The notes beneath the pieces are model-generated. The model saw only the letters and a program-made list of their open reading frames with translations, made no database searches and was not told the origin of the DNA. DNA of 58,597 nt from Dehalococcoidia bacterium (lineage in GTDB: Bacteria > Chloroflexota > Dehalococcoidia > SHYD01), in the NCBI GenBank assembly GCA_009692945.1, contig SHYD01000001.1, positions 77,898 through 136,494 of the forward strand, read 5' to 3'. The position numbers were made by a program, and so were the translations under genes. Shown here in pieces: positions 34,264 through 50,465 of the stretch (position 1 is the stretch's first letter; each line of letters opens with the position of its first letter).

Positions 34264-34294
34264 TGGGGAAGATCATGGCGATGCGCCGCCTACG

Positions 34295-35739: not shown

Positions 35740-35749
35740 CGTGGGGTTT

Positions 35750-36034: not shown

Positions 36035-36035
36035 G

Positions 36036-36203
36036 CTAGCGCCCGCTGCTGATCTGGCGGTTGATGCTGCCGATCTCCTCGACCCAGCGCCTCCGGTCTC
36101 CGTGCTCCATCATCAGGATGTCCTCTGACGGCCAGTGGAAGTGGTATGCGATGTAGGCTACCTCCTGGTAGAGGCGTTCCAAAGGGTAGCCTACGATCCC
36201 CCC
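36036..36203 (-). CDS. DUF6760-like ORF, probable -1 frameshift extension of the tail assembly chaperone (not in ORF track)
   Basis: Hand translation GGIVGYPLERLYQEVAYIAYHFHWPSEDILMMEHGDRRRWVEEIGSINRQISSGR*; no ATG/GTG before the conserved core. Confidence 0.82.
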   Translation of the reverse strand, partial: GGIVGYPLERLYQEVAYIAYHFHWPSEDILMMEHGDRRRWVEEIGSINRQISSGR

Positions 36204-36571: not shown

Positions 36572-36612
36572 GGTCCTGTGGGTCCAACGCTACCGTCACG
36601 GCTGGCCCGATC

Positions 36613-37062: not shown

Positions 37063-37105
37063 GCCTGTTCACCTCCATGTGTCGATTTCGAACCAAGCTG
37101 CTCCG

Positions 37106-38635
37106 CTATCCGCCGGTCGCCAGTTGCTGCACTCGGAACACCACGAATTCAGCCGGTTTCACCGGGCACATCCCGATCTCGCACACCACCATGCCCGCGT
37201 CGATCTGGTCCGGCGGATTGGTCTCGGCGTCACACTTCACGTAGAACGCCTGGTCCTGAGTTGCGCCGAATAATGCGCCGTTGCGGTACGGCCCCATGAG
37301 GAACTGGGTGATGTCCCGCTTGAGCCGCTGCCACAGGCCGAAGTCGTTCGGTTCGAACACGGCCCAATTGGTGCCACCCTTGATGGAGGCCTCCACGTAG
37401 TTGAAGAAGCGGCGGACGTTGATGTACTTCCAAGAGGCGTCGGTGATGGCGAGGGTGCGGGCGCCCCACACCCGGATACCCATTGCGCCGAAGGCGCGGA
37501 TGCAGTTGACCCCGATGGGGTTAAGCGTCCCCTGCTCGCCGGCGGTGATGTCTTGCGTCAACTCGACGGCACCCCGCACCACCTCGTTGGCCGGCGCCTT
37601 GTGGACGCCTCGCTCGGTGTCGGTGCGGGCCCAGATGCCGGCCATGTGGCCGCTCGGCGGCACCGACATCAACTTGCCATCGGGCCCCAGCACCCGAATC
37701 CAGGGGTAGTAGAGGGTGGCAAAGGGCGAGTCCACCATCAGTTTCTGTTCCCGCCACTCCTTGACCTCCTGGGGGTCGAGGCCGAGGGGCGAGTCGATGA
37801 TGCACACCCGGTTCCGCATCAGTTCGCAGTGGTCGACCATCGCCTTCTGGAGGGCGATGAGCGCCTCTTCTTCGATGAGGCCGCGCTGGTAGGCGCTCAT
37901 CAAGTCCGGAGCGCAGACGATGGTCACGTTCTCCACCGCCTCTAGTCCCGCGATCCCGGAGCGGCTTCTCAGGTCGCCCTGGACCTGGGTGGTGTCCAAG
38001 CGCAAATCGCCAGCGGCCGGCGCCGCAAGGGCATAGGACCCTTCGGTCGGGGCCGGGAGCAGGGGCGCTTTGCCCATCGGGATATCGAGCCAGACGTAGG
38101 TCGATGTCCCGTTGACCACGGTCTCGACGAAGCGGGGGCTCTCCCGGTTCATGGTCACGTTGGCGAAGGACTCCACCGCCTTGCCGCCTGCCTTCACCGA
38201 CACGGTGAACATCGGGGCTGCGGGGTCGGCCGGCAGGTTGTCATCCCCACCCTTGGCGGGTCCGATATCCACCGAGACGCTGGCGGCCGCTAGGCCGTCT
38301 TTGATGGCGTAGGCTTCCAGGGCGGGTTTGTCGCCCTCAGCCGCGGGGACCTGTACCCGGGGCGCAAGGGGCGAGGCCACATTGACGATGTAACAGACGC
38401 CGCCGCCGTTGTTGAAATACCCGTACACCGCGTGCCCGAGGTAGTACTCCTTGCGGATCCCACCGAACTTCTGCTGGAACTGGGACCAATTGGTCACCAG
38501 CACCGGTTTGTTGCGAGGGCCCATTTCGGCGAACCCGATGAACGCCGCTACCGACGTCCCCACCCCTTCGATAGGCCTGCCGGCCGAAGGCAGCTCCTCA
38601 ACGTAGACTCCAGGCGTTAGATACGAAGGCGCCAT
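37106..38635 (-). CDS. Contractile tail sheath protein
   Basis: YLTPGVYVEE, YYPWI, PPSGHMAGIWARTD.ERGVHKAPANE, RVWGARTL, VFEPND, PVKPAEFVVFR; ATG 38635 with AAGGAG RBS. Confidence 0.96.
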   Translation of the reverse strand: MAPSYLTPGVYVEELPSAGRPIEGVGTSVAAFIGFAEMGPRNKPVLVTNWSQFQQKFGGIRKEYYLGHAVYGYFNNGGGVCYIVNVASPLAPRVQVPAAEGDKPALEAYAIKDGLAAASVSVDIGPAKGGDDNLPADPAAPMFTVSVKAGGKAVESFANVTMNRESPRFVETVVNGTSTYVWLDIPMGKAPLLPAPTEGSYALAAPAAGDLRLDTTQVQGDLRSRSGIAGLEAVENVTIVCAPDLMSAYQRGLIEEEALIALQKAMVDHCELMRNRVCIIDSPLGLDPQEVKEWREQKLMVDSPFATLYYPWIRVLGPDGKLMSVPPSGHMAGIWARTDTERGVHKAPANEVVRGAVELTQDITAGEQGTLNPIGVNCIRAFGAMGIRVWGARTLAITDASWKYINVRRFFNYVEASIKGGTNWAVFEPNDFGLWQRLKRDITQFLMGPYRNGALFGATQDQAFYVKCDAETNPPDQIDAGMVVCEIGMCPVKPAEFVVFRVQQLATGG

Positions 38636-38731
38636 GTGGTGCAACTCCTTCTGAAGACTTGACCGCCGAAGATGACGCGATCACGCGTCCAGCCGCGGGG
38701 CGACCGGCCCCACCATGCCTCAACCGGGTAG

Positions 38732-38775
38732 AGCGTAACAGAGCCAAGGTTAACCCCCGGTTATGTGCCGGTTAA
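38732..38775 (-). promoter_or_regulatory. Sheath-operon promoter: three TAACC repeats at 11-bp period plus extended -10
   Basis: GGTTA on + strand at 38748, 38759, 38770; minus-strand TGtTACGCT at 38740-38732. Confidence 0.7.
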
Positions 38776-38793
38776 ATTGGTCGGCGGCTGCTC

Positions 38794-39624
38794 TCACAAC
38801 TCGAGGATGACGTCCTCCCCCGGTATCGTCACGCTCACCTTGGCCTCCGTCCGGTCCTGCGCCCGCAACACGAGAACCGCGCTGCCCCGCCTGGGCGCGG
38901 GCAATCGGAACCAACCCTGCTCGTCGGTGGTGGTGCGGGCGCCGGTCTCCTCCACCATCACCACCACGCCCGGCAGTCCTTCAACGACGTTGTCCCGGTT
39001 CCGCACCCAGCCCCTCACGTCGAATCCGGAGCGGGCATCATCCGGCGTGATCTGCCGAATGCCTATCTGCGGCGCCCTGAGCACCAGCGGCGCCTGGTAT
39101 GCCACCTCAGGATCCAACACGAGGGTCACCACGTAGGTGAGACCGGGACGGACCCGGTTCTCAAGCCCCTGCCAGAGGTCGGCGAAATTGGACGGCATCT
39201 GATCCGGCTGCGCCACCGAGGTGGTTACCGGTCCCGGTTGGTCAACCAGTCCACCCCTCAGCAGGTCACGCGGCAACGGGTTGCTCTTCACCAGCGCCGC
39301 CAGCACTCTCCAGAGCAGCCGGTGCTCATCCTCCGGCGCTCGGGCCCAGGTGGTCACTTGGTAGGTGGCGTCGATGCGCAGGGGGGCACGCTGCCTGCTA
39401 CCCAGGTTGTTTTCTCCGCTCCTCTTGACTTCCCACCCCACCGTCCGCATTTTGAGGTTCTCCCGGAGGTCGAACAGGAAACAATTGACGGCGGGCCGGG
39501 TGAGCCGGCCGGACCAATCCCGGTCAGGAGTATCGAAGGCCAGCTCGACTTCGGTGGGGTCGAGCGGAACGGTGCGCACCAGCAACTCGCGGATGGTGTC
39601 GTCCAGGTCAGCCAGCACGGTCAT
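38794..39624 (-). CDS. DUF4255 (Pvc16/Afp16 cap) protein with C-terminal carboxypeptidase-regulatory-like domain
   Basis: LAFDTPDRDW, VNCFLFDLREN, YQVTTW...EDEHRLL, RPGLTYVVT; C-terminal TTTDEQGWF. Confidence 0.88.
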   Translation of the reverse strand: MTVLADLDDTIRELLVRTVPLDPTEVELAFDTPDRDWSGRLTRPAVNCFLFDLRENLKMRTVGWEVKRSGENNLGSRQRAPLRIDATYQVTTWARAPEDEHRLLWRVLAALVKSNPLPRDLLRGGLVDQPGPVTTSVAQPDQMPSNFADLWQGLENRVRPGLTYVVTLVLDPEVAYQAPLVLRAPQIGIRQITPDDARSGFDVRGWVRNRDNVVEGLPGVVVMVEETGARTTTDEQGWFRLPAPRRGSAVLVLRAQDRTEAKVSVTIPGEDVILEL

Positions 39625-41756
39625 GACTCCAACAGAAGCGAATAGTACGGCTCAAAATCGTTCTGTGCCACCAGTTTCCCCAACTTTTGATATTCCCGGC
39701 GAGTACCTCGGATGAGGTGCCGCATCGCGATCCGGTCGCCTTCCTCCGCGGCCAGGAAGGCCCCGGTCAGGCAGATATTGCGGATGTGGCCGCCTGCCAG
39801 CCGGAACTTCCGCGCCAGGAAGGGCAGGTCCACATCCCCGTCCAGCGGCGCCTCGTTGGGCAGCGAGCCGCGCCAGATGCGGAGCCGCTCCGCTTCCTCA
39901 GGCATCGGGAACTCGATCACAAAGTCCAAGCGACGCAGGAAAGCATCGTCAAGATTGCCCCGTAGGTTCGTGGTCAGCACCGCCACCCCGTTGTAGCCCT
40001 CCAGCCGCTGGAGCAGATAAGCCGTCTCCACGTTGGCGTAACGGTCGTGGGCATCCCGCACCTCGGATCGCTTTCCGAACAGGGCGTCGGCCTCATCGAA
40101 CAGCAGGACGGCGTCGCCCTTCTCGGCAGCGCCGAATATGGCGTCCAGGTTCTTCTCCGTCTCACCAATATATTTGCTGACGATGGACGCCAGATCGATG
40201 CGGAACAGTTCGAGGCCGAGCACGCCCGCGATGATCTCCGCCGCCATCGTCTTGCCGGTGCCGGGTTGCCCAACGAACAGGGCGGTCAAACCGCTGCGCC
40301 CGGCCACGGCCCGGCCGAATCCCCAGGTCTCCAGCACCCGCAGTTGGTGGCGGGCCCTGGCCGCGATCTCGCGCAACTGCGCCAAGGCATCGCCCGGCAG
40401 GACGATATCGTCCCAGCCGTGACGCGGCTCCACGCGCCGGGCCAGTCCGTTCATGGGCGGGGCGCTGATGGCGCGGGCCGCCGCTCGCAGTTCAGACATC
40501 CCGGCCTGGTCCTCACCGGCAAATTGAGCACGGAGGCCGCCGGCCGCGGCGACTGATTCGATGCTTTCCTGGTCCAGATTGTACCGGTTAGCGAGTTCCA
40601 CCACTCCATCGGACCCTATCGGACCGCTCAACACCGATTGCCACATCCTCAACCGTTGTTCCAACGCCAACGGCGCCAGTTCCAATCGGATGGAAGGGAC
40701 CGAGGCGATCCAGGTGCTGGGCTCCCAACGCGCCTCACCCAGCAGCAGCGTCGGGCGAATTCTGCGGACCAGGTCACGATGCAGTTGCGACATCAATTGC
40801 GCATGGCCGGCCTTGTCCGGGGTGAACAGCACGTCGAACTCGTCGAATGCTAAGACCGCATCCTGCAGGGTAGCCTCCTGCACCAGCAGATGAACGTTTC
40901 TGGCGAGATTGCCCGCGGCCAGGAGATCCGAGACGCGGGCGACCAGGAGCGAGACCCCGGCCTGAAGGCAGGCCGCGCGCGCGGCGGCCAGGCGGGCAGG
41001 CCCGGTTTGGCCATGGAGGTACACCACGGGAGAAGCCGAGCCGGTCTGTTGAGCCCCAACCAGGTGAACCAGCCCCTCGACCAACGCCTGGTTGAGGCCG
41101 AGGGCTGGCGGTGGTGGTTCTGGTTCTGTCCGGTAGAACGAGGCGAAACCAGTGAGCCTCCCATCGATCCGGTCGGAACCGAGCAGGAATTCGGACACCC
41201 GATCATCCAGTTTCAACGGCCGGCTCAGGAAGGGTAGCCGTTCCGCCGATTCTTCGGCCAGCGTCACGATACCCGAGGCCAGCAGCGAACCCTGGAGCCC
41301 TAACCGCACCCTTGCTTCGACCCGGTCGGCCAACCCCGGGGCCAGCAATTGCAGCACCAGGTTTGCGGTGGGACGGCGGCGGGACACATCGTCCTGGAGA
41401 TAGCCATACAGCCGCTCATAACGAATGTCCAGTTCCGGCGCCAGGATAATGAGCACCGCTTCCTGCTCGAAAGCATCCAGACCCCACTGCGCCGCCAAGT
41501 GCTGGAGGCGTTCCGGTATGACCGCTGGGGCCAACTCCAACAGCTTCCGTGCTTCCCAGGGCTGCGGAGTTTCGGCAAGCAGCGCGTCAATCTCGCCGTC
41601 TGAGATGTACAGTCCGCGCAGGGGGTCCGCCGCCCGTGCCGCTATCTCGTCCCGCAGCCCTTCGACCGCGATCCGAAGGCGGAGGTCGAGCCGCAGGAGG
41701 GCTCGCCGCAGCATATCAAAAGACGCTGTTGCCAACGGGGCGCCGGCGGTTTCCAT
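39621..41756 (-). CDS. AAA+ ATPase (Afp15-like)
   Basis: YGYLQDDVSRRRPT, GQPGTGKT, SKYIGETEKNL, LLFDEADALFGKRSEVRDAHDRYAN. Confidence 0.94.
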   Translation of the reverse strand: METAGAPLATASFDMLRRALLRLDLRLRIAVEGLRDEIAARAADPLRGLYISDGEIDALLAETPQPWEARKLLELAPAVIPERLQHLAAQWGLDAFEQEAVLIILAPELDIRYERLYGYLQDDVSRRRPTANLVLQLLAPGLADRVEARVRLGLQGSLLASGIVTLAEESAERLPFLSRPLKLDDRVSEFLLGSDRIDGRLTGFASFYRTEPEPPPPALGLNQALVEGLVHLVGAQQTGSASPVVYLHGQTGPARLAAARAACLQAGVSLLVARVSDLLAAGNLARNVHLLVQEATLQDAVLAFDEFDVLFTPDKAGHAQLMSQLHRDLVRRIRPTLLLGEARWEPSTWIASVPSIRLELAPLALEQRLRMWQSVLSGPIGSDGVVELANRYNLDQESIESVAAAGGLRAQFAGEDQAGMSELRAAARAISAPPMNGLARRVEPRHGWDDIVLPGDALAQLREIAARARHQLRVLETWGFGRAVAGRSGLTALFVGQPGTGKTMAAEIIAGVLGLELFRIDLASIVSKYIGETEKNLDAIFGAAEKGDAVLLFDEADALFGKRSEVRDAHDRYANVETAYLLQRLEGYNGVAVLTTNLRGNLDDAFLRRLDFVIEFPMPEEAERLRIWRGSLPNEAPLDGDVDLPFLARKFRLAGGHIRNICLTGAFLAAEEGDRIAMRHLIRGTRREYQKLGKLVAQNDFEPYYSLLLES

Positions 41757-41831
41757 CTTAAGGTCTGCTTAAGCGGGCCCGGAGACGGCGGCCCGGACCT
41801 GGGAGAAATCCCCAAAAAAAGCGCCGGGTGG

Positions 41832-42815
41832 TCATTCGGCTTCTTCGACGGTGTCCATCGCTTCCATCGCTTCGACCGCTTCGACCGGACCCGTCCCGCC
41901 GAGCACCGCCTGGATGCCGGGCAGGTAGGTGTCGAATTGCGTCGCGTTGTGGGTCACGAGTTGCTTGAGCATCGGCGGACTCAATTTTTCGCCCGCCGTA
42001 TCCAGGCTGGTGCGGTAACGAACCTCACCGTCTTCGCAGTCCATCTCGAAATTGCCGATTCGCAGACCATAGTTGGCGCGGGTGAGGAACTCGGCCATCG
42101 GCGGGCGCCGTGCGGCCGGCACCTCACCGGTGAGATACGAGAACACCATGCATTGATTGAGCCCCTCCTCCGCCATGATGACCGCAAGCCACTCCCCATT
42201 GTCACCCTTCAGCGGTACACGCACCGCGCTGCCGGCTTCTACCACCTCGTATGGCCACCCGCTGTCCTTGGCAAACGTGACAATCACGTCGAACATCTCA
42301 CCTGCTCCGTTCTCATCCCTCGCCAGGCCCGCATCGTGCGGCGCGGGGTTGGCCCAGATAGTGCTGTAGCCCTGCTTGACGGCGCCTCCCGCCAACTCTG
42401 GGGGAAGCGGCACCTCTTGGACCACCTGGAGCGCGATCCAACTCTCCGACTTCAAGAGGACGTGGGGTCGTTTGCTGGCGGCCAGGCCCTGCAGCCACGA
42501 CTGCACTTCCTCGGGTGTGGAATCGTGCCCGGTCAAGAGGTGTTGTGCGTCCGCTGCCAACCGCGCTTCCACTTCTATGAGACGGGCTGGGTTGAAGGCG
42601 ATGTTCCCCCCGTTGCGCCTGACCTCGGGGGCCAGCCGGAACAAGCCCTCAGCATCGATGCGCCTGTAGGCAGCATCGTCCACCGTGAAAACCGCACGGC
42701 ACTCGCTCAGGCGGTCCCCGGATCGTCGCAGCTTGACCCTGGACACCCCCACCGGAAGCCCCATACCAGAGGGCGTCTGCAATTCGATATTCAACGGCGC
42801 GTTGCGGCCCTGCAT
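41832..42815 (-). CDS. YbjN domain-containing protein
   Basis: C-terminal MAEFLTRANYGLRIGNFEMD.EDGEVRYRTS is YbjN-like. Confidence 0.75.
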   Translation of the reverse strand: MQGRNAPLNIELQTPSGMGLPVGVSRVKLRRSGDRLSECRAVFTVDDAAYRRIDAEGLFRLAPEVRRNGGNIAFNPARLIEVEARLAADAQHLLTGHDSTPEEVQSWLQGLAASKRPHVLLKSESWIALQVVQEVPLPPELAGGAVKQGYSTIWANPAPHDAGLARDENGAGEMFDVIVTFAKDSGWPYEVVEAGSAVRVPLKGDNGEWLAVIMAEEGLNQCMVFSYLTGEVPAARRPPMAEFLTRANYGLRIGNFEMDCEDGEVRYRTSLDTAGEKLSPPMLKQLVTHNATQFDTYLPGIQAVLGGTGPVEAVEAMEAMDTVEEAE

Positions 42816-42836
42816 GTCAGACTCCGGCAGGACCGG

Positions 42837-44876
42837 CTACGAAGGCCACTTCTTGATCACTTTACCCTGTTCAAAAGTTGCGGTGAGCACCGGCGTCTCA
42901 ATACCCCGGGATTGTTTCGCGGTGAGCTTGACCTCCCACGACTTGAGCTTCCCTCCCGCCTCGGTGAGAGTCACCGACGCCTCGATCCCGATGGCGGAAG
43001 TCCGTGAGGTTTCGACCTCCTTGCTTGGGTCAAACTTCTCGAACTTGATCTGAGGGTCGCTCTTGACGGCAGTTTTGACGGTGTCTACCATCGACGCAAA
43101 ATCTCCCACCATGTTCGCTCCGGTGGCCGCCGCGTTGGGGTCCTCCTCAGCGGCGGATTCGGCCTTTTCTGCCAACAGCGGTGTCATGCGGGTCGCCATA
43201 TTGCCAATATAGGCGACGAGTGCCGACCCGGCGCCACCGCCCCCCAATTCCAACAGATTGAACATGGCGCTGGCGCTGATTTCCAGTTCCCGTTCTTCCG
43301 ATCCGATTGTGTATTCCGCCGACCCCGAGAACGGCCCGAACTCGGCCTCGAACCCAAGCACGCCCTCCATTTTGGTCTGACCCGACGACTTGCGCGCGCC
43401 CCGGGCCTTGGGCATCCGCAGCGCCGCCAGTTCCTTCACCGACAGTTCATCCAGCTTCTTGCCGCCGGTCTGTTTGTGGATGGACGCCTCGACAGACTCC
43501 TTGTTGTACTCGGTGAAATGCCGCGCCTTGGCAGACCCGCCCAATTTGCCACCCGTCACACCACCCTCTGCCTTGATCGATGCATAGGCGCCCCTCCGGA
43601 CAAACCGCTCGCGGTCGTCGGTGCCCTTCGCCAGAACGCCCTTTTCAACCTTGGACGCCCAGCGCTCAGCGAGCTTGTAGCCCTGCCGGGACATGGTGCC
43701 GCCCCACATATAACTGGCCACCTCCCGCGGCAGCACGGAGGACTCCCGGAACTTCTGATACATGGCATAGGAGATGAGTTTCATCACCTCGACACCGGAC
43801 CCACCCTTGGCCTCGATGAAGCCGCCGAGTTCGCCCTGGAGTTTGGCCACGCCGATCGAACCACCGGCCGTCACTCCCAGTTCATTGCCGACCTCGACAT
43901 CGTTTTTATCGTCCTTTTCCGCGCTCATGGTGAGATGGAACCCTATCTCTACACCCGAGGGCGGGATCGGGATGGCCAGATCGAACTCGAACTCGGCAGT
44001 GGTGTCCGGCTGAGGTACGGCCAGGTCGATCAGACCCGCCAACCGCTCCGACGCTTGTTTGAAGTCTCCGGTCAGTTTGTCCTGGACCTTTTTGGTCTTG
44101 GCGTCCGGGGCCACCACCGCGGCCTGCTGCCCTTCCGGGAACTTGACCGCCTCCAGTTTGGCCTTCTCGGCCAGGGCCATCGACTCGAGGTTCTTGACCC
44201 CAGGTGTCCGTTTCGCCACCGCATCGGACGTTCCGTCGGCGTTCTCCTCCCGCCACTGTGCTGTTACGTCCAGTATCTCTTCGAGCACCGCCACCAGCGT
44301 GTCCCGCTGGCTGGAGTTTTCCGGAGGAGCGGTGAGGCCGTGGTACTCGTCCAGCCACTGGTCGATCTCGGTCAGGGTCCCGCCCCGCACGCTGGTGCGG
44401 TCCACATAGGTTGCTGCAGAGAACGTTTCGGCCGTGATCAGCCGCTGGACGGCCGGTGCCTCAGGATAGATAAGCCGGATATTTTCGTTGCCGCGGGCGG
44501 GGTCCGGCAAAGCAAGCCTCGCCAGCTTGGGAAGCGCCACCGAACGGGCTCGACTCGGCGCAGTCGCAGCAGCCGAGGATTGGGAACGGGGACTTACTCC
44601 CCCCGGAACGCCCGCGCCAACACGGGCGACACCGCCGGTCTGCGCCATGCGCTGCAACGTCTGGTTTCCCAGCGTGCGCTGTAACGCCAGGATGGCTGGA
44701 GAGGATATTCCCCGTCCTACGGCCATGGCCGTTTGCAGTGAGGCTACCGCAATCGCAGGACCCATGGCGCCGGCTTCCGGAAACCTTGCCTCGGCCTCGG
44801 TCTGGGAGACCGTCGCCGGGCGTGGCGCCGGGTCTTTATCCGAACGCTGGCTGCGAAGTTGAGAATTCTTTGCCAC
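42837..44876 (-). CDS. Putative eCIS cargo/effector protein
   Basis: ILALQRTLGNQTLQRM and PAVQR leader motifs followed by unrecognised domains; start uncertain (GTG 44876 behind GAGGAG; frame open to 44969). Confidence 0.65.
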   Translation of the reverse strand: MAKNSQLRSQRSDKDPAPRPATVSQTEAEARFPEAGAMGPAIAVASLQTAMAVGRGISSPAILALQRTLGNQTLQRMAQTGGVARVGAGVPGGVSPRSQSSAAATAPSRARSVALPKLARLALPDPARGNENIRLIYPEAPAVQRLITAETFSAATYVDRTSVRGGTLTEIDQWLDEYHGLTAPPENSSQRDTLVAVLEEILDVTAQWREENADGTSDAVAKRTPGVKNLESMALAEKAKLEAVKFPEGQQAAVVAPDAKTKKVQDKLTGDFKQASERLAGLIDLAVPQPDTTAEFEFDLAIPIPPSGVEIGFHLTMSAEKDDKNDVEVGNELGVTAGGSIGVAKLQGELGGFIEAKGGSGVEVMKLISYAMYQKFRESSVLPREVASYMWGGTMSRQGYKLAERWASKVEKGVLAKGTDDRERFVRRGAYASIKAEGGVTGGKLGGSAKARHFTEYNKESVEASIHKQTGGKKLDELSVKELAALRMPKARGARKSSGQTKMEGVLGFEAEFGPFSGSAEYTIGSEERELEISASAMFNLLELGGGGAGSALVAYIGNMATRMTPLLAEKAESAAEEDPNAAATGANMVGDFASMVDTVKTAVKSDPQIKFEKFDPSKEVETSRTSAIGIEASVTLTEAGGKLKSWEVKLTAKQSRGIETPVLTATFEQGKVIKKWPS

Positions 44877-45001
44877 GCTTCTCCTCACCGATTCCTCCCG
44901 CCGCCCGCTCCAATGGGCGACGATCTGGGACAAATTACCCCAACCCATCATCCCAACAGGCTGGGCCAACGGGGTGATCCCGCGTCGGTTTGGCCTTCGA
45001 G

Positions 45002-45817
45002 TTAGCCCTGAAGCAGCTCCTCCTCGGGGCCTGCCCGCTGGACGTAGCCCTGAAGCAGCTCCTCCTCGGGGCCTGCCCGCTGGACGTAGCCCTGAAGCAG
45101 CTCCTCGTCCTCGGGGCCTGCGCGTTGGATAGGAGAAGGGCTCGCAGGCGCGGACGCCGAGGTGGGTTTGGCGCCATCGGCCGTGGAGCCAACCAACCGG
45201 TCCGCCTGATGCACCGCAGCCCGCTCGTAAGGATCGCCGGGGCTGCTGATCGCCACGCCGCCGGCAACCGGCGTTCCGGCGACCGGCCCCGACCTTTGCT
45301 GCACCACATGGGTGGCCTCGTGGGCCAACATTCGGATTCCTTCCGGCGCGTCCGGCTGGTAGTTGCCGGACCTGAAAAAGATATCGGACCCGGTGGTGAA
45401 CGCTTCTGCGTTGACGGCCTGCGCCAGCCGATCCGCCTCGGAATCGGCATGGACCCGAACACCTGAAAGGTCGGCCCCCAAGCCAGACTCGAGGCTACGC
45501 TGGAGCGGCGCCGCCAGCGGTTGACCACTTCCGGCAGCATTCTTGATCTGGCGGCCGAGGTCGGGAGTGGGTCGCCCCTCTTCTTTGGTGGCGATGGCCA
45601 GGCGCTGGATCGCAGCGTTTCCCAGGCCGTGTACGCCGCCGCTCAACACTGCTGCACGGGCGCCGAGTTCTGCGGCTACTTGCTGCAAGGCCTGATTGCC
45701 CAGCGAAGGGGAAATATCCGATGCAGCAGACGATCGATCAGCCTCGACCTGCTCAGCGGCGATAGGCCTGGGCAATTTGCGGGCTAGCCGCTCAGAAATG
45801 TTGGCCGAACCTTCCAT
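45002..45817 (-). CDS. DUF4157 protein ending in QRAGPEEELLQGYV repeats
   Basis: LGNAAIQRL, GADLSGVRVHAD, AEAFTTGSDIFF, LAHEATHVVQQ, SSPGDPYERAA; ATG 45817 with GGAGG RBS. Confidence 0.9.
   Translation of the reverse strand: MEGSANISERLARKLPRPIAAEQVEADRSSAASDISPSLGNQALQQVAAELGARAAVLSGGVHGLGNAAIQRLAIATKEEGRPTPDLGRQIKNAAGSGQPLAAPLQRSLESGLGADLSGVRVHADSEADRLAQAVNAEAFTTGSDIFFRSGNYQPDAPEGIRMLAHEATHVVQQRSGPVAGTPVAGGVAISSPGDPYERAAVHQADRLVGSTADGAKPTSASAPASPSPIQRAGPEDEELLQGYVQRAGPEEELLQGYVQRAGPEEELLQG
45003..45125 (-). repeat. 42-bp coding tandem repeat, about 3 copies
   Basis: + strand unit GTAGCCCTGAAGCAGCTCCTCCTCGGGGCCTGCCCGCTGGAC. Confidence 0.9.
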
Positions 45818-45876
45818 TTGAGGGGCCTCCCTTAACTCCAAGGCGTTGTCTTGGGTGCACTCCAAGGCATCCCGGA

Positions 45877-45908
45877 ACGGTAGCATTGGCCGGTTAATAT
45901 TTGGTTAT
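45877..45908 (-). promoter_or_regulatory. Effector/ATPase-operon promoter: two TAACC repeats at 11-bp period plus extended -10
   Basis: GGTTA on + strand at 45892 and 45903; minus-strand TGcTACCGT at 45885-45877. Confidence 0.65.
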
Positions 45909-45925
45909 TTAGACGCCGATTTCCA

Positions 45926-45955
45926 TTGACGCAGGCACAAGCCGTCCGCTATGCT
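45926..45955 (+). promoter_or_regulatory. Sigma-70-type promoter of the FHA-SARP-kinase operon
   Basis: TTGACG-18 nt-TATGCT. Confidence 0.6.
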
Positions 45956-46019
45956 TAACCGCGTTCGGCGGACTCTGGAGAGGGCGATCCGAGCTAACCG
46001 GCTGCGGAGGTCAGATCGA

Positions 46020-46634
46020 TTGCCGAAACATTCCTGGGCCGTGTTGCTCGCCATCGTGTTGGCCGCCACGGTTGTGGACCGGACCGAGGCGGCGAATCAG
46101 GCTGCGGCGGCGCCCGAATCGCCCCAATCGGCGATGCTCACCGTGGCGGTGCTACTCGGGATCGGCCTGTTGGCCGGCTTGCTTGTGTTCCGCCATGGCG
46201 GCCCCCCCGCCCAATCCGAGGTCGAGGAGATCGAGGCCGACCCTGATGAGACCGAAACGCTGACGGAAGTGGCCAGCGCAGGCTCGGATTCGGCGCCCCT
46301 CGCCGCACAACTGATATTCGATACGCCGGAGGGCCGGAGCCAAGTACTGCTGCACGGCGAGGAGTCGATTCTGGGGCGGGACCCCCTGGCGACCGTGGTG
46401 TTGACGGACCCCTTGGCCTCCCGGCAGCATGCCCGCATCACCCGGCACGAGGGCGAGTACTGGATCGAAGACCTGCGAAGCATGAATGGGACCCTGGTGA
46501 ATGGGACCGCCCTGAGCCGGCAGCGCCTTGAACCCGATGACCTCATACAGATCGGACAGGCCAGGATCACGTTCGCTTTGGAAAGCCCGGCGGCCAGCGG
46601 AGCGCCCGCCGCTCCCCCCCCGGTCCATGACTGA
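46020..46634 (+). CDS. Membrane-anchored FHA domain protein
   Basis: Two N-terminal hydrophobic segments; LGRD, ASRQHARI, DLRSMNGTLVNG FHA motifs; TTG 46020 behind GGAGG. Confidence 0.88.
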   Translation: MPKHSWAVLLAIVLAATVVDRTEAANQAAAAPESPQSAMLTVAVLLGIGLLAGLLVFRHGGPPAQSEVEEIEADPDETETLTEVASAGSDSAPLAAQLIFDTPEGRSQVLLHGEESILGRDPLATVVLTDPLASRQHARITRHEGEYWIEDLRSMNGTLVNGTALSRQRLEPDDLIQIGQARITFALESPAASGAPAAPPPVHD

Positions 46635-47511
46635 GGCCCAACGTACCATGGACTCAGGGCGCCGCCATCCAGTGGCGGTTGCCATGGCGCACCATCCCGG
46701 CTCGTCCGCGACGCCGGTGCCCCCCGCGCCTCTGGCAACTGACGCCGGCGGGGACCTCGCTGTGTTGGTCACCTGCTTGGGCCGCTTTCAGTTCAGTCTG
46801 CCTGCGGGCCACCCGATTGAGTGGCGGTCCACCAAGAGCCGGGCACTGCTCCAATATTTGTTGAACCATCGCGACCGTCCCATACAGCGCGACACCCTGA
46901 TTGATGCCTTATGGCCTGATCCCAGAGCCCTCGCACCGGCCACCTCCCTGAAGGTAGCGGTGCACGGGCTCCGGCACGCCCTGGCAGCAGGGGGGGGCGG
47001 TATCCCCGTCACCATTGTCGCCCACCACTCTGCCTATTCGTTGGAGGCATCCCGGATCTGGTTGGACGTGGAGGAGTTCGAACACTGCTACCAGACAGGC
47101 CGCGCCTCGGAAGCGAGGGGATTCGCCGCCGAGGCGTTGAGGTATTACGCCCGTGCGGCCGAACTCTACCGGGGTGACTTTCTGGAAGAAATAGCCGACG
47201 AGTGGCCGGTGTTCCGGAGGGAAGCCCTGAAGGACCAGTATCTCTTCTTGGCCACCGCACTGGCCCGGGCCGCGATCACGTCCGGCGATTATCAGGAGGG
47301 CGTGACCCTGTGCCAGCAGATCCTCACCAAGGACCGGTGTCGCGAAGAAGCGTACCAGATGCTCATGGTGTGCCACAGCAAACTCGGGCAGCGCGGGCGG
47401 ATCCGGTGCTGGTACAACCTGTGCGTGCGCACCTTGAAGACCGAACTGGACTGCAGCCCCGCTCCCGAAACCTCAGATACCTACCTGCGGGCCCTGACCG
47501 GCGCCCTATGA
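46627..47511 (+). CDS. AfsR/SARP-family transcriptional activator (winged HTH + BTAD)
   Basis: CLGRFQ, KSRALLQYL, RDTLIDALWP, WLDVEEF, LYRGDFLE, REEAYQMLM, ELDCSPAPET. Confidence 0.9.
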   Translation: MTEAQRTMDSGRRHPVAVAMAHHPGSSATPVPPAPLATDAGGDLAVLVTCLGRFQFSLPAGHPIEWRSTKSRALLQYLLNHRDRPIQRDTLIDALWPDPRALAPATSLKVAVHGLRHALAAGGGGIPVTIVAHHSAYSLEASRIWLDVEEFEHCYQTGRASEARGFAAEALRYYARAAELYRGDFLEEIADEWPVFRREALKDQYLFLATALARAAITSGDYQEGVTLCQQILTKDRCREEAYQMLMVCHSKLGQRGRIRCWYNLCVRTLKTELDCSPAPETSDTYLRALTGAL

Positions 47512-50465
47512 CTTTCGCTGCCGCGCCAACGGTCCCCGGGTACCGGCTCCTTCGCCGTATCGGCAGAGGTGGATCGGGCGAGGTGTATGAAGGCCGTGCT
47601 GAGGCAACCGGCGGACGCGTCGCCGTTAAGGTGCTCCACGTTGGGGCAGGAGGACGCCATGCGGGAAGTGAACTCGACCATGAATGGGACGCGCCGCACC
47701 TGGGGGAGACCCGGCATGGGGCCCTGATGCCAACATATGCTGTGGGGCAGACCGCCTCGGTCCGCTATTCGGTGATGCCCCTAGCCGAGGGGGGCAGCCT
47801 CAAACGTCTCATCAGCGCCGGGTGTCCGCTGCCGGTGGAGTGGGCCGCCGGTGTGATCGAACAGATTGCGTCCGCCCTCGAACACCTGCATCAGCACAGG
47901 CTGCTGCATCTCGACGTCAAACCCTCGAACGTGCTGCTCACGGGCGACGGCCGGGCGCTATTGGGGGATCTGGGGAACGCCCGCGCGGTCAACGGAGGGG
48001 ACCAAACCGCGCTCAGGGGACTCATCGGCGGCACTCCGGGGTACATGGCGCCGGAGCAGCGGCACGGTGGACCCCTGGACGCCCGCACTGACGTGTTCGG
48101 TCTGGCGGTGACCGCCTGCGAGTTGCTGACGGGATGCCAACCATTCCCCAAGGATTCACCCACCACCGCCCAGGCCATCCCGCAGGCCACTCTGAATCCG
48201 AGGCTCAACCAGCGGGTGGGCGCGGTGCTCCTGCGAGGCATGGCGCCAAACCCCGAAGACCGCTTCGAGTCCGCGGGCGGATTCGCAGCGGCGCTCACGG
48301 CATCACTTCGCCCGTTTCGTCATCATCCGAACTTTTGGGCGCCAGTTGGCCGGTGGGAGTCCCCCACGAACGGCGGTAAGGGTTGGGCGGATGGGAAGCT
48401 CCAACCAGCGGAGTTGAACAGCGCAGGGGGCCGTGTTACGCGCAATGCGCTGCCGCCAACACTGTTGCTGCTGCTGGTGGGGCTAGGGGGGATGCTGCTT
48501 GCAGCAAACTCCGATGCCGGGGGGGGCATGGTGGCAGTGGCCGGTTGGTTGTTGGCTGTGCGCTGGGGCATCGCCTCGGCCTCGCTCCGCTGGGCGCCCG
48601 CCCTCCTGGGCCGCCTGCTGGTGGCCGCACCCACCCTGCTGCCCCCGACCCGGACCAGGGCCTGGCAGGCGGGTTGCCGGGCCACAATCCTCCTAGTTGC
48701 GGACCTCGCGTTGTGCGCCTTTGCCACGGCGGCCTTGTTGGCCGGTCCGCTCCCCATTGACAACACCATGGAGGCCGGACGTTCCCTGACCCTGGGTTGG
48801 GCCGCCGTGCTTACCTGCCTCGTCGCGGGAGCCCGGCTGCTCCGAAGCAGTGGACTGGGAACGTTGCCCCTCGCTTTGCTGGCGGCCAGCCCGGGGCTGA
48901 TGGCGCTTCCAAACCTGTTGGGGCTGGGTCCGCCCACGGCAGGTTGGTTCAGGGCGGCGGTGGCCTTGGAGATTCTCATTGCGATCGCGCTTGGCCGTAG
49001 CGGGTGGGCGCCCTGGACCCGAGCGCTTGTATCAGCATTGCGCCGAAGCCGCCATGGGCCCGCAACTCCGGCGCACGGCCGGGCGAGTTCACCTGATACC
49101 CCCGGCCGCCAGCGCCCGGTTCGGGCGGCGGCGCTGGGATTGGTCCTGCTGTGCCTCGCCGGTTGCGCGGGAGATCAGGCTGGCCCGCAACCCGTCGCGG
49201 CCCCCACGCCGTCGTCCGGCGCGGCGGAATCGGTCCCCATAGACGCCATCGAACTGACACAGCCGGTGGAACTGGTTTTCTGGCACCAACACAGCGTCGA
49301 ATTCGACCCGTTGCAGCAGCGGATCATCGATGAATTCACCACCCGCCACCCCAACATCACGATCAAGACCGAGGCCTTTCCGCACTACAACCGCATCTAC
49401 CAAAGGGTGTTGGGAGCCATCCAGGCGGGCGGGAACTCGACGCCCGATCTGGTGGCGACGTTCGAGTCCCAGGCGGCCGAATACTATGAGGCTGGGGCGG
49501 TGGCGCCTTTCGATGACTACGTGGCGAGCCCGCGCTACGGCCTGACGGCCGCGGAACAAGCGGATTTCGTCCCATCGTACATCGACGCCACCCGGTTCCC
49601 TCAGTACGGCGGCAAACGCTTGACGTACCCCTTCACCAAGAGCGCGCTCCTGCTGTACACCAACCTGCGGGTGCTGCGTTCCTTGGGCTTCCAGCAGCCG
49701 GCCGCCACTTGGGGTGAGTTTCTGTCCCACTGCCGGAGGGCTGCGTCCTTGAACCGGGAGTGTTACGCCATGGAAGCGGACCCTTCCACGGTGGACGGCA
49801 TCATTTTCAGTTACGGCGGCGAGGTTGCCGCGCCCGACGGCACCCGGAGCCGATTCGATGAACCGGCGACGGCCGCCGCCCTCGACCTGTATGCGACCCT
49901 CGGCGAGGAACGGCTGGGCTACCTGGCGCCGGGTTCGGGACTCCAGATTGCGGACCTAGCCTCGGGCAAGGCGCTGTACCTGATGCGGTCCAGTTCGGCG
50001 CTCCCTCGACTGGACGCCCGGTTCCCGAACCCGAACGACTGGGAGGTCAGCATCATCCCTCAAGGCCGGCCGGACAAAAAGGTGACCGTGCTCTATGGCG
50101 CCAACATCACGATCATGAAGTCCACTCCCGAAAAACAACTGGCGGCATGGCTGTTCATCAAATACTTCACGCAGCCCGACGTCACGGCCCGCTGGGGATT
50201 GGACCCCTCGAACGGCTACTTTCCGCTGCGCAGTTCCGGGTTGAACACCCCCGAATCCCGCAGGATCCTCGGCGAAAACCCTCATTTCGCCAAGGCGCTG
50301 GAGATATCCCGCTTCGCGCGGGTGGAGCCCAGTGCCCTGGGGTGGCAACAAGTGCGTCTGTTGCTTCAGGAAGCCGCCACCGACGTTTTCCTAGGCAGGC
50401 TTTCGGTGGACGAAGCCCGGCGGGTCTTGGTGGAGCGCGCCAACCGGGTGCTGGGCCAGCAGTAG
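47508..50465 (+). CDS. Ser/Thr protein kinase - transmembrane - extracellular solute-binding protein (family 1) fusion
   Basis: GRGGSG, VAVK, HLDVKPSN, DLG, GTPGYMAPE; several TM helices; LCLAGC; SBP motifs LVFWHQH, FTTRHPNITIK, QLAAWLFIKY; ATG overlaps the SARP stop (ATGA). Confidence 0.85.
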   Translation: MTFAAAPTVPGYRLLRRIGRGGSGEVYEGRAEATGGRVAVKVLHVGAGGRHAGSELDHEWDAPHLGETRHGALMPTYAVGQTASVRYSVMPLAEGGSLKRLISAGCPLPVEWAAGVIEQIASALEHLHQHRLLHLDVKPSNVLLTGDGRALLGDLGNARAVNGGDQTALRGLIGGTPGYMAPEQRHGGPLDARTDVFGLAVTACELLTGCQPFPKDSPTTAQAIPQATLNPRLNQRVGAVLLRGMAPNPEDRFESAGGFAAALTASLRPFRHHPNFWAPVGRWESPTNGGKGWADGKLQPAELNSAGGRVTRNALPPTLLLLLVGLGGMLLAANSDAGGGMVAVAGWLLAVRWGIASASLRWAPALLGRLLVAAPTLLPPTRTRAWQAGCRATILLVADLALCAFATAALLAGPLPIDNTMEAGRSLTLGWAAVLTCLVAGARLLRSSGLGTLPLALLAASPGLMALPNLLGLGPPTAGWFRAAVALEILIAIALGRSGWAPWTRALVSALRRSRHGPATPAHGRASSPDTPGRQRPVRAAALGLVLLCLAGCAGDQAGPQPVAAPTPSSGAAESVPIDAIELTQPVELVFWHQHSVEFDPLQQRIIDEFTTRHPNITIKTEAFPHYNRIYQRVLGAIQAGGNSTPDLVATFESQAAEYYEAGAVAPFDDYVASPRYGLTAAEQADFVPSYIDATRFPQYGGKRLTYPFTKSALLLYTNLRVLRSLGFQQPAATWGEFLSHCRRAASLNRECYAMEADPSTVDGIIFSYGGEVAAPDGTRSRFDEPATAAALDLYATLGEERLGYLAPGSGLQIADLASGKALYLMRSSSALPRLDARFPNPNDWEVSIIPQGRPDKKVTVLYGANITIMKSTPEKQLAAWLFIKYFTQPDVTARWGLDPSNGYFPLRSSGLNTPESRRILGENPHFAKALEISRFARVEPSALGWQQVRLLLQEAATDVFLGRLSVDEARRVLVERANRVLGQQ

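What the first reader, a model, noticed from the sequence alone, without database searches (positions are those of the whole stretch)
38732..45908. The same SARP-box promoter architecture precedes both eCIS operons
Seen: TAACC direct repeats at exact 11-bp periodicity upstream of the sheath gene (three copies, 38748/38759/38770) and upstream of the first DUF4157 gene (two copies, 45892/45903). Each set is followed after 9-10 nt by an extended -10 (TGtTACGCT, TGcTACCGT), with no canonical -35. Known: SARPs bind heptamer direct repeats one helical turn apart, ending about 8 bp before the -10. Inference: these are operators of the adjacent SARP, which links the regulator to the injector at the sequence level.
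Basis: partly seen in the sequence, partly recalled or inferred. Interest (0 to 1): 0.78.

Follow-up and report, generated by a model that had tools for sequence, protein, structure and literature searches.

The report
SARP-box promoters before injector operons
Two promoters in front of a phage-tail-like injection machine carry the repeated DNA boxes typical of the activator protein encoded next door, so this machine is probably switched on by that activator, a link suspected before from gene neighbourhoods but here seen in the DNA itself.

Summary
TAACC repeats lie on the minus strand at an exact 11-bp period, three before the sheath gene and two before the first DUF4157 gene. Each array is followed after 10 or 9 nt by a TGnTAnnnT extended -10, with no -35.

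The neighbouring gene is the only BTAD/SARP gene found in the assembly. It is translationally coupled to an FHA gene and a Ser/Thr kinase gene.

Comparison gives the strongest support. In 9 of 11 assessable SARP orthologues of the same class, four ATT(A/C)ACC-like repeats at an 11-bp period, then 9 nt and a TAnnnT box, lie directly beside the SARP gene. Six of these precede eCIS operons. A matrix built only from those six relatives ranks the two window sites first genome-wide.

Not met: the baseplate operon on another contig has no box, and a third array lies at a non-eCIS locus.

The BTAD-eCIS association is already published (PMC8213781). The operator itself is the new part. Binding and transcription starts remain untested.

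The parts
38748..38776 (-). Box array A: three direct heptamer repeats (TTTAACC, CATAACC, GTTAACC; core TAACC) at an exact 11-bp period. It lies 20 nt downstream of the Pvc16-like gene's stop codon.
   Evidence: top-scoring 3-copy array of the whole assembly with a matrix built from relatives only (27.2, next best 17.4); 0 of 60 shuffled genomes reach 27.2
38732..38740 (-). Extended -10 TGtTACGCT. The hexamer TACGCT starts 10 nt after the last TAACC. No -35.
   Evidence: read directly; one search lists no - strand sigma-70 pair here
38725..38725 (-). Predicted transcription start of the sheath operon, about 7 nt after the -10. This would give a 5' UTR of about 90 nt.
   Evidence: inference from the -10 position; not measured
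25963..38635 (-). Trunk operon: sheath 37106-38635, tube 36613-37062, conserved 126-aa protein 36191-36571, DUF4157/eCIS_core 34762-35769, second tube 34295-34813, 1896-aa protein without a Pfam match 28573-34263, LysM tube-like protein 27877-28542, VgrG-like spike 25963-27804.
   Evidence: Pfam; sheath start
45892..45909 (-). Box array B: two direct heptamer repeats (AATAACC, ATTAACC) at an 11-bp period, in the 133-bp gap between the divergent DUF4157 and FHA genes.
   Evidence: top-scoring 2-copy array of the whole assembly (22.2). Shuffled genomes reach 22.3-23.1 at best, so the score alone is not beyond chance; the location is the argument.
45877..45885 (-). Extended -10 TGcTACCGT. The hexamer TACCGT starts 9 nt after the last TAACC. 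No -35. Predicted start near 45870.
   Evidence: read directly
38794..45817 (-). Loading/cap operon: DUF4157/eCIS_core 45002-45817, 710-aa protein without a Pfam match 42837-44969, YbjN-like 41832-42815, AAA ATPase with winged-helix domain (Afp15/Pvc15-like) 39621-41756, Pvc16_N protein 38794-39624.
   Evidence: Pfam
46627..47511 (+). Small SARP (OmpR-type winged helix plus BTAD, 294 aa). Its ATG lies 8 nt before the end of the FHA gene.
   Evidence: Pfam (BTAD 78.4 bits, Trans_reg_C 31.2 bits, both above cut-off); PDB (EmbR E 1.5e-10, AfsR E 1.3e-4); only BTAD match in the assembly; start read
45951..46634 (+). FHA-domain protein with a hydrophobic N-terminal stretch (my reading), first gene of the divergent regulator operon. 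Its start codon is uncertain.
   Evidence: Pfam
47508..50465 (+). Ser/Thr protein kinase fused to a solute-binding-protein domain. Its ATG overlaps the SARP stop codon (ATGA).
   Evidence: Pfam
45926..45955 (+). Sigma-70-like promoter candidate (TTGACG, 18 nt, TATGCT) for the FHA-SARP-kinase operon. Its -35 lies 16 nt from box array B.
   Evidence: consensus match only

Best explanation
The two TAACC arrays are operators of the SARP-family activator encoded 0.7 kb away. Together with the TAnnnT boxes 9-10 nt downstream, they form two SARP-dependent promoters that lack a -35 element.

Inferred mechanism, by analogy with AfsR: SARP protomers bind head-to-tail to successive 11-bp units on one face of the helix. 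They occupy the place of the missing -35 and recruit the housekeeping-sigma RNA polymerase to the -10.

One promoter (start near 45870) would drive the DUF4157, cargo-like, AAA ATPase and Pvc16 operon. The other (start near 38725) is an internal promoter that would boost the sheath, tube and spike genes, which are needed in many copies.

The SARP is co-transcribed with an FHA protein and a membrane Ser/Thr kinase carrying an extracellular solute-binding domain. Its activity is therefore probably gated by threonine phosphorylation, as in EmbR/PknH and AfsR/AfsK.

Shown here: the sequence architecture, its rarity in the genome, the SARP identity of the neighbouring gene, and the conserved pairing of SARP gene with box in relatives. 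Inferred: binding, activation, transcription starts and the kinase input.
For: 1. Exact 11-bp arrays with a downstream extended -10 and no -35 at both sites. There are 3 window matches against 0.00 in shuffles. The full pattern is unique to these two sites in 2.5 Mb.
2. The neighbour is a SARP and is the only BTAD gene found in the assembly.
3. I examined the 12 best non-self SARP matches in 301 genomes of the same class (E 9.8e-101 to 4.8e-47). One of them (G005) lies on a contig too short to assess. Of the other 11, 9 have four ATT(A/C)ACC-like repeats at an 11-bp period, then 9 nt and a TAnnnT-like hexamer (CATCAT in G206, the weakest), directly downstream of the SARP gene.
4. In six of these (G186, G239, G222, G242, G258, G206) the box precedes an operon with AAA, DUF4157, Pvc16, sheath and tube genes, as far as each contig reaches.
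5. In G285 the box precedes an RHS-repeat protein, and in G038 a radical-SAM/SPASM cluster. The box therefore travels with the SARP gene, not with the eCIS.
6. A matrix built only from the 24 heptamers of the six eCIS-linked relatives ranks the DUF4157 site first among 2-copy arrays and the sheath site first among 3-copy arrays in the whole assembly. 0 of 60 shuffled genomes reach the sheath score.
7. Controls: in 58 eCIS loci from other lineages without a SARP orthologue, the best 3-copy score is 15.9 or lower. In 17 loci of more distant SARP-like genes it is 11.6 or lower.
8. In relatives the motif pair TTMACY-N5-TTMACY exceeds the reversed-pattern control: 15 vs 0 in G186, 8 vs 1 in G242, 6 vs 1 in G222.
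9. Extra 4-repeat arrays in G186 and G242 have the same 9-nt spacing to a TAnnnT box. They precede proteins with an LQxxxGNxxxxxL-type motif that the window's DUF4157 protein and 710-aa protein also carry.
10. The published SARP promoter rule is repeats 11 or 22 bp apart, with the 3' repeat 8 bp from the -10 and poor -35 elements (PMC10936776, passages).
Against: - There is no binding or transcript data.
- Site B has only two repeats. Its matrix score (22.2) lies within the range of maxima from shuffled genomes (up to 23.1), so its case rests on location and on the adjacent -10.
- The spacing to the -10 is 10 nt at one site and 9 nt at the other, against 8 bp in the published rule. This depends on how a repeat is delimited.
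- The Pvc16-sheath gaps of the five relatives checked (G242, G258, G186, G206, G222), and of G028, have no box. The sheath-proximal box is therefore not conserved.
- The baseplate operon (PAAR, gp25, Baseplate_J, Tail_P2_I and two FHA proteins) on contig C33 has only a TGcTATAGT box and no array; its best 2-copy score is 1.6.
- A third array on contig C20 (GGTAACC, CGTAACC, GGTAACC, TGTAACG, TGAAAAC, then 9 nt and TACGCT) lies between hxlR and ruvC. It has no eCIS gene and no convincing downstream gene or RNA.
- Two orthologue loci (G036, G276) show no box.
- OmpR/PhoB-type response regulators also bind 11-bp direct repeats in place of a -35 (recalled, not tested).
Confidence: 0.75

Rival explanations
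1. The arrays are real promoter-proximal operators, but they are bound by another regulator that recognises direct repeats, such as an OmpR/PhoB-family response regulator (pho-box-like), not by the adjacent SARP.
For: Pho boxes are also 11-bp direct repeats that replace the -35. In Streptomyces, PhoP and AfsR sites overlap and share a GTTCACC-like core (recalled from the literature, not from a call). The relatives' heptamers include GTTCACC and ATTCACC.
Against: The box lies directly beside the SARP gene in 9 of 11 assessable orthologue loci, whatever the downstream cargo: eCIS, RHS protein or radical-SAM cluster. It is missing from 58 eCIS loci that lack the SARP. The arrays are nearly unique in the genome, unlike a pho regulon with several operons. 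I did not examine pstS or phoB loci.
Confidence: 0.1
2. The SARP binds the boxes, but mainly to autoregulate or repress. Array B would serve the divergent FHA-SARP-kinase promoter 16 nt away, and the eCIS operons would be driven chiefly by read-through or by the extended -10 alone.
For: Array B lies 16 nt upstream of a TTGACG-18-TATGCT candidate on the + strand. Extended -10 promoters can work without a -35 (established knowledge). The baseplate operon has an extended -10 without any box.
Against: All 3 arrays in this genome and the 13 read in relatives point towards a TAnnnT-like hexamer 9-10 nt downstream on the same strand. That is the activator geometry of SARPs. Array A has no divergent gene. 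In relatives the SARP gene lies upstream of the box on the same strand, not divergent from it.
Confidence: 0.08
3. The arrays are chance or relict repeats without a regulatory role.
For: Site B's score alone is matched by the best sites of shuffled genomes. The C20 array has no obvious target.
Against: There are 3 window matches against 0.00 in 100 shuffles. Two triples occur where my arithmetic gives about 1.5e-4 expected. The phasing to a -10 box is the same at every site. The independent matrix from relatives ranks both sites first in 2.5 Mb.
Confidence: 0.03

Closest known systems
AfsR and the afs box of the afsS promoter, Streptomyces coelicolor (PMC10936776; abstract and passages read)
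   Same: The activator has an OmpR-type winged helix plus BTAD. It binds 11-bp direct repeats on one strand that overlap the place of a poor -35 and sit just upstream of the -10. Assuming a start 7 nt after the -10, the two proximal 11-bp units here would span about -39 to -18, against -40 to -19 for the afs box (my arithmetic). AfsR is controlled through Ser/Thr phosphorylation (AfsK; recalled).
   Different: Here the SARP is a small one (294 aa, no NOD or TPR domains). The repeat core is TAACC / ATT(A/C)ACC, with 2-4 repeats instead of 2. The spacer to the -10 is 9-10 nt. The host is not an actinomycete; earlier notes of this scan call it an uncultured Dehalococcoidia, which I did not test. 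The target is a contractile injection system, not an antibiotic pathway.
EmbR with PknH of Mycobacterium tuberculosis (PDB 2fez, best solved relative)
   Same: SARP fold (E 1.5e-10 over residues 51-281), combined with an FHA domain and a Ser/Thr kinase partner.
   Different: In EmbR the FHA domain is fused to the regulator. Here the FHA protein, the SARP and the kinase are three translationally coupled genes. The EmbR-PknH link itself is recalled, not from a call.
BTAD-domain genes as eCIS 'shell' regulators (Geller et al. 2021, PMC8213781; passages read)
   Same: That paper lists BTAD (PF03704) among the domains found in eCIS loci of 4-10 phyla. Its model states that eCIS operons are regulated by adjacent RfaH, GerE or BTAD genes, occasionally activated by kinases.
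   Different: The passages I read give no operator, promoter or regulon; I did not read the whole text, and supplements are closed. This finding supplies the cis element, its phasing to the -10, and its conservation beside the SARP gene.
Streptomyces coelicolor CIS cluster sco4242-sco4263 (PMC10020575; passages read)
   Same: An eCIS-type cluster with several promoters in divergent regions and a putative cluster-situated regulator (sco4263).
   Different: The control described there runs through bldA (a TTA codon in the regulator) and developmental timing. The passages read describe no SARP boxes.

Membership tests
SARP family regulator (protein 46627-47511) | N-terminal OmpR-type winged-helix DNA-binding domain (Trans_reg_C) | tested here: met
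   PF00486, 31.2 bits against a cut-off of 26.2, residues 101-155 of the 327-aa frame
SARP family regulator (protein 46627-47511) | Bacterial transcriptional activator domain (BTAD) directly after the DNA-binding domain | tested here: met
   PF03704, 78.4 bits against a cut-off of 22.1, profile positions 1-142 of 146
SARP family regulator (protein 46627-47511) | Sequence relationship to characterised SARPs over both domains | tested here: met
   EmbR 2fez, E 1.5e-10 (query residues 51-281); AfsR 8hvr, E 1.3e-4 (query residues 61-289)
SARP family regulator (protein 46627-47511) | Binds direct repeats and activates transcription | not testable with these tools
   Needs EMSA or footprinting and in vitro or reporter transcription
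SARP-dependent promoter (cis architecture) | Two or more direct repeats on one strand, spaced 11 or 22 bp | tested here: met
   Exact 11-bp period, 3 copies and 2 copies; rule from PMC10936776
SARP-dependent promoter (cis architecture) | 3' repeat about 8 bp from the -10 element | tested here: inconclusive
   There are 10 and 9 nt between the end of TAACC and the TAnnnT hexamer, and 9 nt in all nine relatives read. This is 8 bp only if the repeat is delimited 1-2 nt further downstream.
SARP-dependent promoter (cis architecture) | Poor or absent -35 element, its place overlapped by the repeats | tested here: met
   No - strand sigma-70 pair. The hexamers 17 nt upstream of the -10 match TTGACA at no more than 2 of 6 positions (read).
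SARP-dependent promoter (cis architecture) | Cognate SARP gene in the same locus, with the pairing conserved in relatives | tested here: met
   The SARP gene lies 0.7 kb from array B and 7.9 kb from array A. The box lies beside the SARP gene in 9 of 11 assessable orthologue loci.
SARP-dependent promoter (cis architecture) | Transcription start about 7 nt after the -10 that depends on the SARP | not testable with these tools
   No run on record as RNA holds the stretch
Extracellular contractile injection system (Afp/PVC-like) | Sheath, tube, spike, Afp15-like AAA ATPase, Afp16/Pvc16-like cap and DUF4157 core genes | tested here: met
   Pfam matches above cut-off for Phage_sheath_1 and 1C, Phage_T4_gp19 (twice), CIS_tube, Phage_base_V, AAA with WHD, Pvc16_N and eCIS_core (twice)
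Extracellular contractile injection system (Afp/PVC-like) | Baseplate wedge genes (gp25, gp6/Baseplate_J, Tail_P2_I) and PAAR | tested here: met
   Present, but on another contig (C33:4212-8141), not in the window and without a box. That this contig belongs to the same cell rests on the binning of the assembly.
Pho box bound by a PhoB/PhoP-type response regulator (rival) | The same box upstream of phosphate-regulon genes (pstS, phoB and others) | not tested
   The pho regulon loci of this genome were not examined. Exact TAACC arrays occur at only three loci.

The most novel reading that the evidence does not exclude
A portable SARP-plus-box cassette acts as a kinase-gated master switch for antagonism loci outside the actinomycetes.

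In this reading, a membrane Ser/Thr kinase with an extracellular solute-binding domain senses an outside cue. Through the FHA partner it turns on the SARP. The SARP then fires the loading operon and, through a newly acquired internal box, the sheath/tube operon.

The same kinase would act post-translationally on the two FHA proteins encoded in the box-less baseplate operon. That would give a two-level threonine-phosphorylation control resembling both AfsK/AfsR and the type VI secretion threonine-phosphorylation pathway.

In relatives, the same SARP-plus-box cassette has been hooked to eCIS operons, an RHS toxin and a radical-SAM peptide cluster.
Probability: 0.25. Interest if true: 0.7.

Novelty: new member of a known kind. 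Interest (0 to 1): 0.55.

Why it matters
How contractile injection systems are switched on is poorly known outside a few insect pathogens and Streptomyces. Adjacent BTAD genes have so far been only a neighbourhood statistic (PMC8213781).

This finding gives a concrete, testable operator: ATT(A/C)ACC / TAACC repeats at an 11-bp period, 9-10 nt from the -10. It comes with two predicted transcription starts and a small predicted regulon, including cargo-like genes in relatives.

It would also extend the SARP activation mode, worked out structurally for AfsR, to a different phylum and a different class of target. This holds if the earlier notes of this scan, which call the host an uncultured Dehalococcoidia (Chloroflexota), are right.

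The box could also be used to find eCIS cargo genes that lie away from the main locus.

Tried and rejected
- **RNA evidence.** No RNA holder is listed for 36900-46100. One run only guessed to be RNA (X5, contigs of a roughly 90-98% similar strain) covers the sheath gene from 36900 to 38670 and a 246-bp piece of the DUF4157 gene, with almost nothing between. Contigs cannot show starts or levels, so I draw nothing from this.
- **Close relatives for footprinting.** The sheath protein finds nothing above about 50% identity over its full length in genome contigs (28 loci) or metagenome contigs (30 loci). 0 of 7 same-family genomes have a sheath match.
- **Closest SARP orthologue.** G005 (58% identity, with FHA and kinase neighbours) lies on a 3.5-kb contig with no promoter region, so it cannot be assessed.
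- **Baseplate operon as a third target.** Rejected: there is no array upstream of the PAAR gene on C33.
- **C41 Baseplate_J hit.** This is a lone gene between alaS and yceG and is not part of the eCIS.
- **C20 array.** Rfam finds nothing (one match at E 0.7). The fold z-score is -1.09. No Pfam-bearing ORF lies downstream. The region is not conserved in family genomes apart from an adjacent 160-bp dispersed repeat.
- **TAACC pairs in five same-family genomes.** These are near the reversed-pattern control (4 vs 2, 1 vs 0, 5 vs 3, 5 vs 4, 6 vs 2).
- **Small 77-aa ORF.** It follows the box in six relatives but has no match in this genome (tblastn, best E 2.9).
- **Literature.** Searches for 'SARP' with 'contractile injection system' (4 papers, none on this link), 'eCIS' with 'BTAD' and 'SARP' with 'Chloroflexi' (24 papers, 10 listed, none on SARP regulators) found no described operator.

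Full report
**What is in the sequence**

On the minus strand, the 157-bp gap between the Pvc16-like gene (stop codon at 38794-38796) and the sheath gene (ATG at 38635) reads as follows. There are three heptamers, TTTAACC, CATAACC and GTTAACC, whose TAACC cores start exactly 11 bp apart (+ strand GGTTA at 38770, 38759 and 38748). Then come 10 nt and TACGCT, with TG two bases upstream.

The 133-bp gap between the first DUF4157/eCIS_core gene (ATG at 45817 behind GGGAGG) and the divergent FHA gene (45951) holds AATAACC and ATTAACC 11 bp apart (45903, 45892). Then come 9 nt and TACCGT, again with TG two bases upstream.

The consensus scan lists no sigma-70-type -35/-10 pair on the minus strand anywhere in 38500-46100. 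The hexamers at the -35 position are CCGGGG and ACCAAA by my reading.

**Is it more than chance?**

TAACC-N6-TAACC matches three times in the window, against 0.00 in 100 dinucleotide-preserving shuffles.

In the whole assembly (2,501,484 bp, 99 contigs, 81% complete, 65% G+C) there are 1565 TAACC on both strands, so about 0.5 pairs are expected at any fixed spacing (my arithmetic). There are 5 pairs at N6, against 1, 2, 0 and 1 at N4, N5, N7 and N8. The five pairs are the sheath triple, the DUF4157 pair and one further triple on contig C20.

**Gene context (Pfam)**

- *Minus strand, upstream operon:* DUF4157/eCIS_core (45002-45817), a 710-aa protein without a family, a YbjN-like protein, an AAA ATPase with a winged-helix domain (Afp15/Pvc15-like) and a Pvc16_N protein.
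- *Minus strand, downstream operon:* sheath, tube, a conserved 126-aa protein, a second DUF4157 protein, a second tube protein, a 1896-aa protein without a family, a LysM tube-like protein and a VgrG-like spike. Unrelated Ham1 and molybdenum-cofactor genes follow.
- *Plus strand, divergent from the DUF4157 gene:* an FHA protein, a small SARP (46627-47511; its ATG lies 8 nt before the FHA stop) and a Ser/Thr kinase fused to a solute-binding domain (ATG at 47508, overlapping the SARP stop as ATGA).

The SARP scores above the cut-offs for Trans_reg_C and BTAD. Its best solved relatives are EmbR (E 1.5e-10) and AfsR (E 1.3e-4). It is the only BTAD match in the assembly.

**Relatives**

The eCIS is sporadic. 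A sheath match was found in 3 of 61 related genomes including this one, and in 0 of the 7 other genomes of the family. The nearest sheaths elsewhere are about 50% identical. Close-range footprinting was therefore impossible.

The SARP gave the lever instead. Of 301 genomes of the class, 91 have a match at E <= 1e-10 (the tally includes this genome and one unpublished genome on which nothing here rests). I examined the 12 best non-self matches (E 9.8e-101 to 4.8e-47, 37-58% identity).

- G005 (58%, also flanked by FHA and kinase genes) lies on a contig too short to show a promoter.
- In G186, G239, G222, G242, G258 and G206, the SARP gene lies directly upstream of, and on the same strand as, an eCIS gene string. 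As far as each contig reaches, this runs through a small 77-aa ORF, then AAA, DUF4157, Pvc16, sheath and tube genes (sheath N-termini read).
- In each of these six loci, the stretch just after the SARP gene holds four heptamers at an 11-bp period, followed by 9 nt and a TAnnnT hexamer. For example, G186 has ATTCACC, ATTCACC, ATTATCC, ATTCACC then TAACCT, and G222 has ATTAACC, ATTAACC, ATTCACC, TTTCACC then TAGCCT. In G206 the repeats are weaker and the hexamer is CATCAT by my reading.
- G285, G059 and G038 show the same four-repeat arrangement right after the SARP gene (3-copy matrix scores 25.5, 23.9 and 14.9). Their cargo differs: an RHS-repeat protein in G285, a radical-SAM/SPASM cluster in G038, and a contig end in G059.
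- G036 and G276 have no array.

So 9 of 11 assessable orthologue loci pair the SARP gene with the box, whatever follows. This argues that the box belongs to the SARP rather than to the injector.

**Cross-validation**

I built a weight matrix from the 24 heptamers of the six eCIS-linked relatives only and scanned the whole assembly on both strands.

- The best 2-copy array of the genome is the DUF4157 site (22.2; next best 19.3).
- The best 3-copy array is the sheath site (27.2; next best 17.4).
- In 60 shuffled genomes (30 by 5-mer block permutation, 30 by full permutation), the best 3-copy score never reached 27.2 (maxima 25.6 and 24.4). The best 2-copy score reached 22.3 and 23.1.

The sheath site therefore stands on its score. 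The DUF4157 site stands on being the top site of the real genome inside the one gap next to the SARP gene, with a correctly phased -10.

Negative controls:
- 58 eCIS loci of other lineages (28, 30) have no SARP orthologue (tblastn E <= 1e-5). Their best 3-copy scores are 15.9 or lower.
- 17 loci of more distant SARP-like genes score 11.6 or lower.

**Hints of a regulon in relatives**

The pair TTMACY-N5-TTMACY exceeds its reversed control in G186 (15 vs 0), G242 (8 vs 1), G222 (6 vs 1) and G206 (7 vs 3), but not in G258 (3 vs 3).

Two of the extra hits are full four-repeat arrays with 9 nt to TATCAT or TATGAT (G186:C32, G242:C7). They precede proteins of 373 and 494 aa with no Pfam family. These carry a short LQxxxGNxxxxxL-type motif near the N-terminus. 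The window's DUF4157 protein and 710-aa protein carry related motifs. I take this as a hint that they are cargo-like. The motif is short and I did not test its significance.

**What does not fit**

- The baseplate genes (PAAR, gp25, Baseplate_J, Tail_P2_I, then two FHA-domain proteins) are on contig C33, behind a fructose-bisphosphate aldolase/phosphatase-like gene (my reading). Their upstream gap has TGcTATAGT but no array; the best 2-copy score is 1.6.
- The third exact array (contig C20, minus strand: GGTAACC, CGTAACC, GGTAACC, TGTAACG, TGAAAAC, then 9 nt and TACGCT) lies between hxlR and ruvC and points at the 3' end of hxlR. It has no Pfam-bearing ORF, no Rfam match and no unusual fold downstream. 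Its G at heptamer position 2 is disfavoured by the relatives' matrix.
- A GTAACC pair with 9 nt to TAATCT lies divergent from a PAS-SARP gene in the same-family genome G001, in front of a cupredoxin-like gene. The C20 array may therefore belong to a second SARP in the unassembled 19%, or be a weak site of the same SARP. I leave it unexplained.
- The Pvc16-sheath gaps of G242, G258, G186, G206, G222 and G028 have no array. The internal sheath promoter is particular to this genome among those compared.

**Mechanism**

The passages read from PMC10936776 state that SARP target promoters have direct repeats 11 or 22 bp apart, with the 3' repeat 8 bp from the -10 and poor -35 elements. They also state that AfsR protomers on the afs box (centred at -29.5) substitute for -35 recognition ('sigma adaptation') and contact the alpha C-terminal domain.

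With a start 7 nt after the -10, the two proximal 11-bp units here span about -39 to -18 (my arithmetic). This is within a base or two of the afs box. The most likely mechanism is therefore SARP-dependent activation of two promoters that lack a -35.

The FHA-SARP-kinase operon suggests control by threonine phosphorylation, as in EmbR/PknH and AfsR/AfsK (recalled). The FHA proteins in the baseplate operon may connect to the same kinase. Both points are inference.

**Novelty**

Geller et al. 2021 (PMC8213781; passages) already list BTAD as an eCIS 'shell' domain and draw adjacent BTAD genes as regulators, sometimes with kinases. A 2026 review repeats this (PMC12961389).

I found no description of an operator, a promoter or a SARP-eCIS link in three searches. 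Supplements were closed.

According to earlier notes of this scan, which I did not test, the host is an uncultured freshwater Dehalococcoidia. This is therefore a new, well-supported member of a known kind of promoter, in an unusual host and in front of an unusual target.

Noticed in passing
G000 contig C20:48620-48680 (outside the window; L001:12604-12680, - strand): A five-unit array at an 11-bp period (GGTAACC, CGTAACC, GGTAACC, TGTAACG, TGAAAAC), then 9 nt and TACGCT, between hxlR and ruvC. It has no eCIS gene, no convincing ORF, no Rfam family and an ordinary fold downstream.
   Followed up: partly
G000 contig C33:4212-12537 (L038): The baseplate half of the injector (PAAR, gp25, Baseplate_J, Tail_P2_I) lies on a separate contig. 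It is followed by two FHA-domain proteins (FHA-DUF4159, 522 aa; FHA, 945 aa). Upstream there is only TGcTATAGT and no box. The FHA proteins may tie assembly to the Ser/Thr kinase next to the SARP.
   Followed up: partly
L001:12718-12880, and 48 matches across G000, one at C37:76100-76236 just before the window: A dispersed repeat of about 160 bp, also present in same-family genomes. Earlier notes of this scan describe it as a MITE family.
   Followed up: no
L082:11019-11249 and the equivalent place in L078, L079, L081, L083, L085: A conserved small ORF (77 aa in L082, beginning MGHYSSFVIKIW) is the first gene after the SARP box in six relatives. It has no Pfam family and no match in this genome.
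   Followed up: partly
window 36191-36571 (-): A 126-aa protein without a Pfam family is the most conserved protein of the locus. It is 51-69% identical in nearly all eCIS loci compared, across several phyla. Its C-terminus has a CPEC motif, perhaps a zinc ribbon.
   Followed up: no
window 42837-44969 (-) and 45002-45817 (-); L090:4344-5465; L091:4537-6021: A short N-terminal motif of the LQxxxGNxxxxxL type is shared by the 710-aa protein, in weaker form by the DUF4157 protein, and by the two no-family proteins that follow the extra SARP boxes in G186 and G242. It may be a cargo or loading tag. It was not tested statistically.
   Followed up: partly
L084:10731-18403 (G285) and L086:10757-17141 (G038): The same SARP-plus-box cassette precedes a 2128-aa RHS-repeat protein in one relative and a radical-SAM/SPASM cluster in another.
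   Followed up: partly
L098:120-2193 (G001, same family): A PAS-SARP gene lies divergent from a perfect 11-bp direct repeat (core GTAACC, twice), followed by 9 nt and TAATCT, in front of a cupredoxin-like membrane protein.
   Followed up: partly
window 28573-34263 (-): A 1896-aa ORF without any Pfam match lies between the second tube gene and the LysM tube-like gene, in the position where a tape-measure or large cargo protein would be expected.
   Followed up: no
G000 C60:31692, C89:23182, C13:1392, C20:14289, C20:31337: A repeated element of about 35 bp beginning (G/A)TTATCCACAGATT and containing TTTTCACAGATT, seen at five or more loci among the matrix hits. It includes a DnaA-box-like TTATCCACA (recalled consensus).
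   Followed up: no
G000 contig C41:3563-5038 (L039): A lone Baseplate_J-like gene (491 aa) lies between alaS and yceG, away from any other tail gene.
   Followed up: no
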